NCBI GenBank assembly: GCA_951406725.2
Contig: OX597825.1
Coordinates: 39,618,001 to 39,682,000, forward strand
From: Octopus vulgaris
Taxonomy: Eukaryota
Direction: 5' to 3'
Length of the DNA stretch: 64,000 nucleotides
In this document: in pieces, positions 8,898-15,774 of the stretch
Layout of the letters: each line of letters opens with the position of its first letter
Position numbering within the stretch: the stretch's first letter is position 1
Made by a program: the position numbers and the translations under genes
Notes under the pieces: model-generated
Databases searched by the model: none
Told to the model about the DNA's origin: nothing
The model's input: the letters and a program-made list of their open reading frames with translations, nothing else

Positions 8898-9525
8898 CGA
8901 AGGCGGGAGCTGGCAGAAACGTTAGCACGCCTGGCGAAACGCATTGCCGTATTTCGTCTGCCGTTACGTCCTGAGTACAAATTCCGCCGAGGTCGACTTT
9001 GCCTTTCATCCTTTCGGCGTCGATAAATTAAGTAACAGTTACGCACTGGGGTCGATGTAATCGACTTAATCCCTTTGTCTATCGTTGTATGTTTGTCCTC
9101 TCTGTTTTAGCCCCTTGTGGATAGTAAAGAAATAGGCATTTCGTCTGCCGCTACGTTCTGAGTTCAAATTCCGCCGAGGTTGACTTTGCGTTTCATCCTC
9201 TCGGGGTCGATAAATTAATACCAGTTACGCACTGGAGTCGATGTCATCGACTTAATCCCTTTCTCTGTCCTTGTTTGCTCCCTCTATGTTTAACCCCTTG
9301 TGAGCAATAAAAAAATAAGAAACTTTAGCACGCCGGGCGAAATGATTAGTAGTATTTCGTCAGTCTTTGAATTCTGAGTTCGAATGCCACCGAGGTCGGC
9401 ATTTGCATTTATCTTTCGGGGGGGGGGGGGGGTTAGATAAATTAAGTACCAGTTGCGTACTGAGGGCGATCTAATCGACTGGTGTCGCCCCCTACATTTC
9501 GGGTTTTGTGTCTGAAGTAGAAAAT
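8898..9525 (+). mobile_element. SINE family B, three tandem internal modules
   Basis: The module ttctgagttcaaattccgccgaggtcgactttgcctttcatcctttcggggtcgataaattaagtaccag is repeated three times. The B-box-like GTTCAAATT is present, and the same family occurs at 45680-46070. Confidence 0.75.
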
Positions 9526-12891: not shown

Positions 12892-13224
12892 CCTATATAG
12901 ATATAGATATATATACACATACATACATATATATGTACATATATATATATATTTATGTATGTATATATATATGTAGGTATGTATATAAATGTATACATAC
13001 ACACATATATATTCAATTATGAAATAGAAACAGCGGTGGTGTAATAAACACTATCAAGCACATATAATTAAAGTATAGGTTTTGTGTAATTGCTGTTAAG
13101 CTGCGAAAGGGTGTGGTGGAGGGTTCTCACTCTAAGTCTCAATATCAAAACACCTGATATCAAAACACCTGAATGTCATGGAAAGACAAGAAAGTTACCA
13201 CTAGTATATACTTTTTGCCTTTCT

Positions 13225-13420
13225 CCTTTTGCTCTTTTCACTCATGAGACTGCGGTCATGCTGTAGAATGAATCGACAGGTGTATATACATGAGTTTATT
13301 TTTCTTTAGGTCTAGTAGATACTCTTTGCCGAATCGCTAAATTGCGGGAACATAAACAAACCAACACCGCTCGTGGGGGACACACACATACGTAAAAACT
13401 CACACACGCACACACAAAAC
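13225..13420 (-). mobile_element. SINE family A 3' fragment
   Basis: gactgcggtcatgctg...ctctttgccgaatcgctaa...caacacc matches the reverse complement of the family A tail. Confidence 0.55.
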
Positions 13421-13426
13421 ATATAC

Positions 13427-13481
<55 letters not shown>

Positions 13482-13565
13482 TATACACACACACACATTT
13501 ATATACATATATATATATCTACACATGTATACACACACAAACACACACACACACACACACACATA

Positions 13566-13603
<38 letters not shown>

Positions 13604-13604
13604 G

Positions 13605-14160
13605 AAAATAGTAAAAAGTGAAAAAACTACAGAAGGCTTGTTTTAAAAGGTTAAAAAATATATATTTGTGTCATTATGTCTGAAGAATGTTATAAATTTT
13701 GTTCATACAATGCCATAGTTTTTGAAGAAATGACCGGTTTCCCGTTCAGCTTTTCAAATTTTTTACATCGGTATGTTTATGTTGAGAAGTGTGAAGAGAG
13801 TTCCAGATAAGGGGAGGTAATAAGTGATTTCTTCTGGTGTAAGGGACGTAATCGCTTAATATTTCTTGCCTTTTTTCTGGAGTGAGTTTCTCTGTATAAG
13901 AATGTTGGAATCGTTAAGTTTGGGCTTGTATTTTTCAATGAAGAATGTTTCCTTGTTTAGTCTAATTTGTGTTGGTGTTCCGATAGCACATTGGTAAAAT
14001 GGAAAGATTAAAAGTTGTGGTAGTAGTTGCTTTGCGCATTTCTCAATGTGCTCAGTAAAGGGTATCATTCTGTATTCTGGGAATGCAATCTGTTGTCGAT
14101 GCAGTGTGCATCTACGTCTGAGTGATAGTCCCGTGGACCCCATGTAGTTTTGGTGGCAAT
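13605..14160 (-). mobile_element. Penelope-like 3' end (GIY-YIG C-terminus plus terminal repeat), inverted relative to the adjacent body
   Basis: ORF 13856-14143 reads (YM)GSTGLSLRRRCTLHRQQI...EH...KETFFIEKYKPKLN. It is a near-identical inverted copy of 15345-15700. Confidence 0.85.
13725..13763 (-). ncRNA. Minimal hammerhead motif, U3-A8 variant (helix II mutated)
   Basis: Minus strand reads AAAAAT-TTGAAAA-GC tgaac GG-GAAA-CCGG-TC-ATTTCT. Confidence 0.6.
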
Positions 14161-14164
14161 AATT

Positions 14165-15293
14165 GTGAAACCTAACAATGGGCTACCTGGAAATAATCAT
14201 TTACCAGGAATCTTTATCAATCTTTGGAAACCCCCTCTCTCAATACATAAAAGAGAATTGGAAACGATTCCTGGACGATTGTTTTATACTCTGGAATGAA
14301 AACACAGATAAACTCCTAAAATTCAAAAACCTATTGAACAGCACAAACCCAAATATACAGTTCACAATGGAATCCAAAAAAAGAGCGCCCATTTTTGGAT
14401 ATACTAATTTAAAAAATTAACCTTAAAATAGAAACAGACATTTTTTACCAAGCCACAGACGCCAAACAATACCTACTTTTTGATTCATGCCACCCAAGAT
14501 ACATTAACACACACATCCCCTTCAACCTTGCAAGAAGGATATGCACAATAGTGTCAGAACAAAATACCAGGAACTTTAGACTGCAAGAACTCAAAAACAC
14601 CCTAATTGACAGACATTACCCAGCTCAACTCATAGAGGATGGGATCAGACGTGCAACAGAAATTGACATAGAAACTTTAAGAAAAGTTCAACACAACAAC
14701 ACACATTCCCCGAAAATACTACCTTACATATCCACATACAACCCCAGAAACATAGAAGCCTTCACCATCATCACCCAGAATTTACCAATACTTCATAAGG
14801 ACCCCAAATTAAAGGAAATTCTAAACATACACCAAATCATTAAAAGCTACAAACAACCTAAATCACTTAAAAAGATTCTCACAAAGGCAAAATTGTTTTC
14901 TGAAATTACGGATACAAAAGTTCAAAAATGTGGTAGACTGAACTGTGCAACATGTCCAAACATGCTGAAGGATCAGAATTCACTCTTCAATGTCATGGAA
15001 AGACAGAAATTCACTAGTATCATAACTTTACTTGTGCCTTTCTCCTTTTTGAAAACATAATTTCATGTCATAAAACTGCTCGGGTCATGCCACTAGAATG
15101 AATCGACATGTGGGGTCCACGGATACTATGCGTTTACTTTTCTTTAGGTCTAGTAGATGCACACTTTGCCGAATCGACAACAGATTGCATTCCCAGAATA
15201 CAGAATGAACACCGCTCGTAGTGAGACACACACATTGACGTAAAAACTGCGCACACAGCACACACACACATATACACAATATATATATATATC

Positions 15294-15327
<34 letters not shown>

Positions 15328-15736
15328 GATACACACAACACAAATTTAGACTAAACAAGGAAACATTCTTCATTGAAAAATACACACACAAACACACACG
15401 ATTCCAACATTCTTGTACAGAGAAACTCACTAAAAAAAAAAGGCAAGACATATTAAGCGATTACGTCCCTTACACCGGAAGAAATCACTTATTACCTCTG
15501 GAACTCTCCTCACACTTCTCAACGTAAACATAACGATGTAAGAAATTTGAAAAGCTGAACGCGAAACCGGTCATTTCTTCAAAAACTATGTCATTGTATG
15601 AAATTTATAACATTCTTCTGACATAATGACTCAAATATATATTTTTTAACCTTTTAAAACAAGCCTTCTGTAGTTTTTTCACTTTTTACTATTTTCTATA
15701 TATTCAACCACGTGTTTTCACACACCAACTTTCTCA

Positions 15737-15740
<4 letters not shown>
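14165..15740 (+). mobile_element. Penelope-like retroelement, 5'-truncated (RT C-terminal half, linker, 3' terminal repeat)
   Basis: Motifs WKRFLDDCFILW, NPNIQFTME, SCHP..IPFNLARRICTIVSE, PYISTYNP and CGRLNCATC are typical of PLE RT and the pre-GIY-YIG linker. The frame is disrupted. Confidence 0.9.
15540..15579 (+). ncRNA. Minimal type I hammerhead ribozyme, U3-A8 core variant
   Basis: AAGAAAT-TTGAAAA-GC tgaac GC-GAAA-CCGG-TC^ATTTCTT has a 7-bp helix I, a 2-bp helix II, palindromic helix III ACCGGT and a GUC site. It lies in a Penelope terminal repeat. Confidence 0.75.

Positions 15741-15774
<34 letters not shown>

What the first reader, a model, noticed from the sequence alone, without database searches (positions are those of the whole stretch)
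15540..15579. Penelope terminal-repeat hammerhead with a non-canonical U3-A8 core
Seen: AAGAAAT-UUGAAAA-GC ugaac GC-GAAA-CCGG-UC^AUUUCUU has full minimal HHR geometry, but CUGANGA is replaced by UUGAAAA. The same core is in the inverted copy at 13725-13763. Established: positions 3 and 8 form a tertiary Watson-Crick pair in the active hammerhead, U3-A8 is a known rare functional variant, and Penelope-like elements carry minimal HHRs in their terminal repeats. Searches requiring CUGANGA would miss it.
Basis: partly seen in the sequence, partly recalled or inferred. Interest (0 to 1): 0.75.

Follow-up and report, generated by a model that had tools for sequence, protein, structure and literature searches.

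The report
Known-variant hammerhead in Penelope retroelement
This is one of hundreds of copies of a small, probably self-cutting RNA motif at the tail of a Penelope-type jumping gene; its swapped core base pair is already published, but some genomic copies of this and related families begin exactly at the predicted cut, a few fused to other RNAs, which suggests the motif really cut in living cells.

Summary
The motif is real (1 descriptor hit in the window, 0 in 100 shuffles) and its two-copy minimum-energy fold is the double hammerhead. It lies in the terminal repeat of a 5'-truncated Penelope-like element (RT, C-terminal GIY-YIG, inverted arm, tail, TA target). U3-A8 is the inherited family state (401 exact copies) and outnumbers C3-G8 about 6:1 genome-wide under one descriptor. 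It is not new: Cervera & de la Pena 2014 report about 1,300 U3-A8 motifs in Schistosoma Penelope elements, and this scan noted U3-A8 repeats in this genome before. The inverted copy carries two helix-breaking changes; this locus is probably inert. Added here: element ends cluster modestly at the predicted cut (9 loci versus 0-5 at five control positions in a sister family, p about 0.01), including sense fusions to 18S rRNA and U2 snRNA and head-to-tail joins of the element to itself, as expected if cut RNA was ligated and copied. Against strict need of the pair: a U3-G8 subfamily and about 46% of the lineage with a shifted helix I kept spreading. Cleavage was not assayed.

The parts
15540..15579 (+). 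Minimal type I hammerhead motif, U3-A8 core, palindromic helix III; predicted cut 15572/15573
   Evidence: identical in 24 of 38 anchor matches in the first 30 loci
13725..13764 (-). Second copy in the inverted arm, with helix I and helix II mismatches
14169..15740 (+). Main arm of a 5'-truncated Penelope-like element: end of RT, linker, endonuclease region, 3' terminal repeat and tail
   Evidence: matches to longer copies L041 and L106
14169..14420 (+). RT core end (LDD motif), followed by a frame change
   Evidence: the same region of L041 hits Pfam RVT_1, E 9.9e-09
14413..15060 (+). RT thumb and linker with CX4CxxC motif
   Evidence: motif described for Neptune and Nematis clades
13604..14158 (-). 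Inverted 5'-truncated arm (endonuclease C-terminal part plus terminal repeat, without tail)
15701..15740 (+). About 40-nt tail present on one arm only
14989..15400 (+). Mosaic of element sequence and left-flank sequence (13172-13548) in 10-30-nt blocks; probable assembly or polishing artefact; does not reach the motif
15741..15772 (.). (TA)n target microsatellite, right side (left side ends near 13603)

Best explanation
The motif is the inherited minimal hammerhead in the terminal repeat of an endonuclease-bearing Penelope-like retrotransposon, with U3-A8 replacing C3-G8 across the family, and it likely cuts slowly when two copies pair through the palindromic helix III, probably helped by the element's protein. 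Shown: anatomy, family-wide U3-A8, position about 90 nt after the endonuclease stop, two fixed 3' ends 130 and 170 nt past the cut. Inferred: a tandem source element yields an RNA with two hammerheads; most templates are copied uncut from two internal start points (cDNA runs back through the motif); a minority are cut, and the freed 5' end is either where copying stops or is joined to another RNA end (its own downstream part, 18S rRNA, U2) before copying. This particular copy is probably inert: it is truncated, has no same-strand partner in the window, and a read-through transcript would pair with the inverted arm.
For: 401 exact 26-nt copies, control 0; 95 of the first 100 of 334 core-free matches have the same core, none C3 or G8. 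Two-copy minimum-energy fold equals the designed double hammerhead, -13.3 kcal/mol against 2 x -3.0. Helix I sequence differs among U3-A8 families whose RT-EN proteins are 42-56% identical yet stays paired: 71 of 80 first-four positions in the 20 loci (hand count); 38 of 40 in 10 representatives chosen after seeing those data, against 18 when strands are permuted. 3' ends fall at two sites in 77 of 83 copies aligned (41 at +142-149, 1 at +152, 35 at +189-191 of the reference), the signature of PMC11167929. 5' junctions at the cut: own subfamily 4 loci, controls 0 of 7 matches; sister subfamily 4 of 7 matches; distant family B 9 loci versus 0, 3, 5, 1-2 and 5 at -10, -4, -2, +2, +4, binomial p 0.006-0.012. 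Sense fusions at the cut to 18S rRNA (E 5.4e-16) and U2 nt 57-94 without microhomology; element-to-itself joins +459 to +1 and +1910 to +1. Literature: U3-A8 natural and active (PMC3088659), present in Penelope elements (PMC4209133); a Penelope hammerhead is protein-assisted (PMC11167929).
Against: No cleavage assay and no usable RNA reads. Helix II is only 2 bp. In this lineage 937 matches lack one nucleotide at the cut junction against 1081 that have it, and a U3-G8 subfamily forms one clade (98/96) with young two-repeat elements (L105 repeats 99% identical), so spread does not need the canonical geometry. C3-A8 (136) and U3-G8 (115) matches are as many as C3-G8 (136) beside the same helix III. 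The junction excess is about threefold on small counts; 2 of the 4 own-subfamily loci are fold-backs that helix I complementarity alone could explain; the SINE-like fusion has an extra base and nearby microhomology; two-armed junctions also occur at control positions. Only 8 of 20 family representatives give all three helices as the minimum-energy dimer. PMC11167929 found no RNA reads ending at the cut and no need of cleavage for insertion in vitro.
Confidence: 0.72

Rival explanations
1. The motif is a hammerhead-shaped structural signal (protein binding, template positioning or dimerisation) whose chemistry is largely relaxed; U3-A8 drifted in through A+T mutation bias and cleavage is rare or irrelevant to transposition.
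For: Subfamilies with U3-G8 or a one-nucleotide-short junction spread; nearly all copies were made from RNA uncut at this site; cleavage mutants still insert in vitro in another Penelope element (PMC11167929); Naiad elements are reported to lack hammerheads.
Against: U4, G5, A6, A9, GAAA, U16.1, non-G17 and helix I pairing persist across families whose surrounding 3' sequence no longer aligns; junctions and RNA fusions sit at the exact cut. This rival is compatible with occasional cutting.
Confidence: 0.22
2. The cut-site junctions arise at the DNA level: reverse transcriptase stalls at the 3' edge of the stable dimer or helix I and switches template, with no RNA cleavage.
For: Fold-backs at helix I (L132, L133); junctions also at -4, -2, +2, +4; template switching is a recognised route to retroelement chimeras (PMC11838501).
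Against: Copying towards the 5' end would meet the 3' strand of helix I first (+6 or +7), not its far edge at +1; the same foreign join occurs on both arms of L136, L138 and L145 and the same self-join in both orientations at L126, which points to a join already present in the template.
Confidence: 0.2
3. The motif is a chance match or a product of the local assembly error.
For: A mosaic, probably artefactual stretch lies 140 nt upstream.
Against: 0 hits in 100 shuffles; 401 exact copies elsewhere; contigs of four public runs cover the motif with no listed change at positions 3 or 8.
Confidence: 0.01

Closest known systems
Minimal hammerheads of metazoan Penelope-like elements, U3-A8 variant of Schistosoma mansoni Cercyon (Cervera & de la Pena 2014, PMC4209133; parts 1-2 of 4 read, supplement file 2 term-searched, file 1 not available)
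   Same: Type I, in the terminal repeat, palindromic short helix III, G10.1-C11.1, U3-A8 in place of C3-G8, mostly single or opposite-strand copies of truncated elements.
   Different: Helix II is 2 bp (7-8 bp there), helix I 7 bp (4-5 there), no extra nucleotide between 9 and 10.1 (frequent there but not part of the descriptor); here U3-A8 is the majority core under the descriptor used, there about 1,300 against about 2,000.
PAc Poseidon hammerhead of Anolis (Frangieh et al. 2024, PMC11167929; passages and second part of the main text read)
   Same: Hammerhead upstream of two internal RT start sites that define the tail; copies made from uncut RNA.
   Different: C3-G8 core overlapping the ORF start there; here U3-A8, about 200 nt before the first ATG, in an element with a CX4CxxC linker; here genomic junctions at the cut are seen, there no RNA reads at the cut were found.
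U6/LINE-1 and other RNA/LINE-1 chimeras (Moldovan et al. 2019, PMC6789731, abstract read; PMC11838501, passages read)
   Same: Cellular RNA fragment fused in sense 5' of a truncated retroelement; RtcB joins 2',3'-cyclic phosphate to 5'-OH ends, the end type a hammerhead leaves.
   Different: In LINE-1 the element's breakpoint is variable; here it falls at a ribozyme's predicted cut.
Animal non-LTR retrozymes (PMC7229834, passages; bioRxiv 10.64898/2026.07.22.740005, part 1 of 5)
   Same: Type I dimer-type hammerheads; 359-nt tandem families with U3-A8 occur in this genome.
   Different: The finding sits in a protein-coding element, not a short non-coding tandem repeat.

Membership tests
Minimal type I hammerhead of Penelope terminal repeats | Core boxes N3-U4-G5-A6-N7-N8-A9 and G12-A13-A14 with complementary 3 and 8 (C-G or the published U-A) | tested here: met
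   variant in PMC4209133
Minimal type I hammerhead of Penelope terminal repeats | Helix I closing the open end, supported by covariation | tested here: met
   7 bp here; 71 of 80 and 38 of 40 pairs across families
Minimal type I hammerhead of Penelope terminal repeats | Helix II with G10.1-C11.1 | tested here: met
   2 bp kept while the loop takes five sequences in sister subfamilies; only 8 and 7 of 10 pairs across distant families
Minimal type I hammerhead of Penelope terminal repeats | A15.1-U16.1, H17 and palindromic helix III allowing a dimer | tested here: met
   (9 of 10 representatives palindromic)
Minimal type I hammerhead of Penelope terminal repeats | Location in the terminal repeat of a Penelope-like element | tested here: met
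   present in both repeats of tandem elements L045, L046, L105, L106
Minimal type I hammerhead of Penelope terminal repeats | Self-cleavage as a dimer | not testable with these tools
   only indirect genomic junctions
Endonuclease-bearing Penelope-like elements | RT followed by C-terminal GIY-YIG endonuclease | tested here: met
   RVT_1; homologues of L107 protein carry PF00078 and PF01541; the window's endonuclease fragment alone had no Pfam hit
Endonuclease-bearing Penelope-like elements | Partial tandem repeats, inverted 5'-truncated arm, 30-40-nt tail on one end | tested here: met
   description
Neptune or Nematis clade | CX2-5CxxC linker between RT and endonuclease | tested here: met
Neptune or Nematis clade | Placement in an RT tree with named reference elements | not tested
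   no named references were at hand; 'Neptune-like' is a lead only
Non-LTR retrozyme | Short non-coding tandem unit | tested here: not met
   the motif follows RT and endonuclease coding sequence

The most novel reading that the evidence does not exclude
U3-A8 Penelope hammerheads cut in the germ line, and the 5'-OH product is ligated to its own downstream ends (circles) or to cellular RNA fragments (18S rRNA, U2) and then copied by the element's RT from its two internal start sites; the genome thus holds a fossil record of in vivo cleavage and ligation that can score every natural core variant (U3-A8, U3-G8, C3-A8, C3-G8, shifted helix I) for activity.
Probability: 0.5. Interest if true: 0.62.

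Novelty: new member of a known kind. Interest (0 to 1): 0.36.

Why it matters
The variant itself is known, so the finding as filed is ordinary. Two points carry some weight. Searches that demand CUGANGA would miss most hammerheads of this type in this genome (21,169 against 3,901 raw matches). [quoted passage not shown]

Tried and rejected
Rfam scan of the window: no hammerhead family, only simple-repeat microRNA matches. Pfam SIR2 matches to the linker are below cut-off and rejected. The look-up of sequencing runs: no RNA holder listed; contigs cannot show ends or expression; the mosaic stretch had no cover in 19 of 30 bins in three runs, which proves nothing by itself. First subfamily tree had two partial rows with long branches and was rebuilt without them. 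Retrozyme tree did not resolve the order U3-A8, C3-A8, C3-G8 (62/85, 74/98). Two control patterns were looser than intended (allowed the family base at -1; one search allowed two family bases): 39 of 43 matches were set aside by their printed letters, 3 of the other 4 were checked (1 true junction), 1 had no locus. A regular expression for second arms failed and was replaced. Rfam scans of whole junction loci missed the 18S and U2 positive controls, so controls are not shown free of RNA fusions; three control upstream pieces match other repeats. The foreign pieces of L136 and L208 were not identified; ARAGORN found no tRNA in the SINE-like piece. None of 20 C3-G8 loci had an RT-EN match within the stretch fetched, against 8 of 20 U3-A8 loci; their parent elements were not traced. 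Lunse et al. 2017, Przybilski & Hammann 2007, Martick & Scott 2006 and Arkhipova et al. 2017 are not held; I know them only through citing passages, and Lunse et al. may already list such variants. Searches for prior reports; none of the listings showed cut-site junctions or RNA chimeras for Penelope elements (listings only, most papers not opened).

Full report
Observation. A relaxed descriptor finds only this site in the window and nothing in 100 dinucleotide shuffles. One strand alone folds weakly (-3.0 kcal/mol); two strands give, as minimum-energy structure, exactly the double hammerhead (-13.3). The inverted copy (13725-13764) shares the core boxes but has a helix I mismatch and G.G at 10.1-11.1, and does not fold this way. 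Rfam does not see the motif.

Context. The window lies in a 2.8-Gb, A+T-rich animal genome; earlier scan notes call it an octopus, which I did not test. The motif is about 90 nt after the endonuclease stop of a 5'-truncated element: inverted arm 13604-14158, main arm 14169-15740, a 40-nt tail on one arm, (TA)n on both sides. Longer copies carry RT, a CX4CxxC linker and a C-terminal endonuclease whose homologues bear the GIY-YIG family, and tandem copies have the motif in both terminal repeats. This is the layout described for endonuclease-bearing Penelope-like elements, with the linker of the Neptune and Nematis clades (bioRxiv 10.1101/2021.04.23.441226, passages).

U3-A8 is inherited, and common. 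The exact 26-nt core occurs 401 times, control 0. With the core left free, 95 of the first 100 of 334 matches have the same seven letters; none has C3 or G8. Beside the same helix III the genome has 2,658 U3-A8, 136 C3-G8, 136 C3-A8 and 115 U3-G8 matches (controls 17, 13, 13, 10). With a looser helix III the counts are 21,169 (control 2,250) for U3-A8 and 3,901 (control 1,019) for C3-G8; this descriptor misses other helix III forms, and copies are not independent events. U3-A8 families with RT-EN proteins 42-56% identical to this one have different helix I sequences that still pair: 71 of 80 first-four positions over all 20 loci (hand count), and 38 of 40 in ten representatives that I chose after seeing those data, against 18 for permuted strands (two of the ten are related). 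Flanks of 7 of the other 9 representatives do not align with this family. That is the pattern of a maintained RNA structure.

Signs of a relaxed core. Within this lineage 1,081 matches have the full junction and 937 lack one nucleotide there, leaving an extra U before the core or no N17. A U3-G8 group is one side of a branch at 98/96 in a tree of 28 upstream segments, at most five per type, and includes young two-repeat elements. So elements kept moving with non-canonical cores. Also, 77 of 83 aligned copies end at two sites 130 and 170 nt past the cut in this subfamily's numbering, so copying starts downstream and runs through an uncut motif, as shown in vitro for an Anolis element whose hammerhead was protein-assisted and dispensable for insertion (PMC11167929).

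Signs of cutting. If some RNAs are cut, some copies should begin at +1. In the window's subfamily 13 matches lack C17 against 149 with it; 6 are point changes and 7, at 4 loci, begin at the cut: a TA-flanked insertion built from a 459-nt unit running from +1 into ORF1 and joined head to tail, with the same join on the inverted arm (L126); a foreign piece joined at +1 on both arms (L136); and two fold-backs that helix I complementarity could explain. Two control positions gave 0 of 7. In a sister subfamily 4 of 7 matches are true junctions, among them +1910 joined to +1; no controls were run there. In distant family B (2,390 copies) 10 of 13 matches, 9 loci, are junctions at the cut, against 0, 3, 5, 1-2 and 5 at five control positions; binomial p 0.006-0.012, a rough figure on small counts; three of the -2 cases end in TA and could be cut-site events. 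Among the nine are a sense fusion to 18S rRNA on both arms (L138), to U2 nt 57-94 with no microhomology and no remainder of U2 downstream (L141), and to a SINE-like repeat with one extra base (L145). Hammerhead cleavage leaves a 5'-OH (established chemistry), and RtcB joins such ends to cyclic-phosphate ends in U6/LINE-1 chimeras (PMC6789731, abstract); template switching is the alternative (PMC11838501). Controls were not shown free of RNA fusions.

Mechanism. Most likely (0.72) the motif is a slow, dimer-dependent, probably protein-assisted ribozyme: tandem source elements give RNAs with two copies; most are copied uncut, a few are cut and the new 5' end stops copying or is ligated first. 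This copy is likely inert, having no same-strand partner in the window and an antisense arm beside it (inference). Rivals are a structural role with relaxed chemistry (0.22), DNA-level template switching as the source of the junctions (0.2, a rival to that step only) and chance (0.01).

What is known. [quoted passage not shown] Perreault et al. 2011 report natural U3-A8 and cite in vitro activity (PMC3088659, passages). Earlier scan notes on other DNA of this genome reached the same verdict for other U3-A8 repeats, noted four versions of the pair in the retrozyme family, and reported copies beginning at a predicted cut for a differently wired hammerhead. I found no report of cut-site RNA chimeras for Penelope elements in paper listings or scan notes, but four relevant papers, Lunse et al. 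2017 among them, were not available.

Verdict. A new member of a known kind; interest 0.36. The flagged variant is ordinary; the cut-site junctions are the part worth a full census.

Noticed in passing
window 14989-15400: Alternating 10-30-nt blocks of element sequence and of the left flank (13172-13548, 76% over 420 nt); probably a consensus or polishing artefact between two unrelated sequences.
   Followed up: partly
L038, L039, L053, L054, L055, L056, L059, L077: A 359-nt tandem retrozyme family with C3-G8 (youngest), C3-A8 (93-94% to them) and U3-A8 (84-90%) subfamilies and U3-A8 outgroups, suggesting a return to C3-G8 through a mismatch; tree support weak.
   Followed up: partly
L105, L106, L046, L123: Full-length elements (about 4 kb) have an upstream ORF of more than 400 codons overlapping the RT-EN frame near a run of six T followed by A and a G+C-rich stretch, a possible ribosomal frameshift site.
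   Followed up: partly
L106, L065, L066: In U3 cores with A17, folding pairs U3 with A17, a potential inhibitory pair analogous to C3-G17; family B has A17 and still shows cut-site junctions.
   Followed up: no
tree: The full-length junction (A1.1 present) appears in two separate subfamilies nested among short ones: repeated restoration, repeated loss or recombination between subfamilies.
   Followed up: no
L051, L052, L062: An abundant family matching the C3-A8 pattern has no clear helix I or II in the standard wiring; it may be a differently wired hammerhead, so the C3-A8 count overstates standard motifs.
   Followed up: no
L208 (about 185 nt upstream of the cut, 69% G+C) and L136: Unidentified foreign pieces fused at the predicted cut inside TA-flanked insertions.
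   Followed up: partly
G000:C3:20.77-20.84 Mb: Cluster of at least 12 matches to a U2 fragment at roughly 2-15 kb spacing, probably a U2 gene array.
   Followed up: no
L041, L107: Near-perfect palindromes of 2.4-2.6 kb arms, in L041 extending beyond the element end into flank; could be real inverted insertions or fold-back assembly errors.
   Followed up: no
window 9000-9480: Two to three copies of a 30-66-nt dispersed repeat at about 186-228-nt spacing.
   Followed up: no
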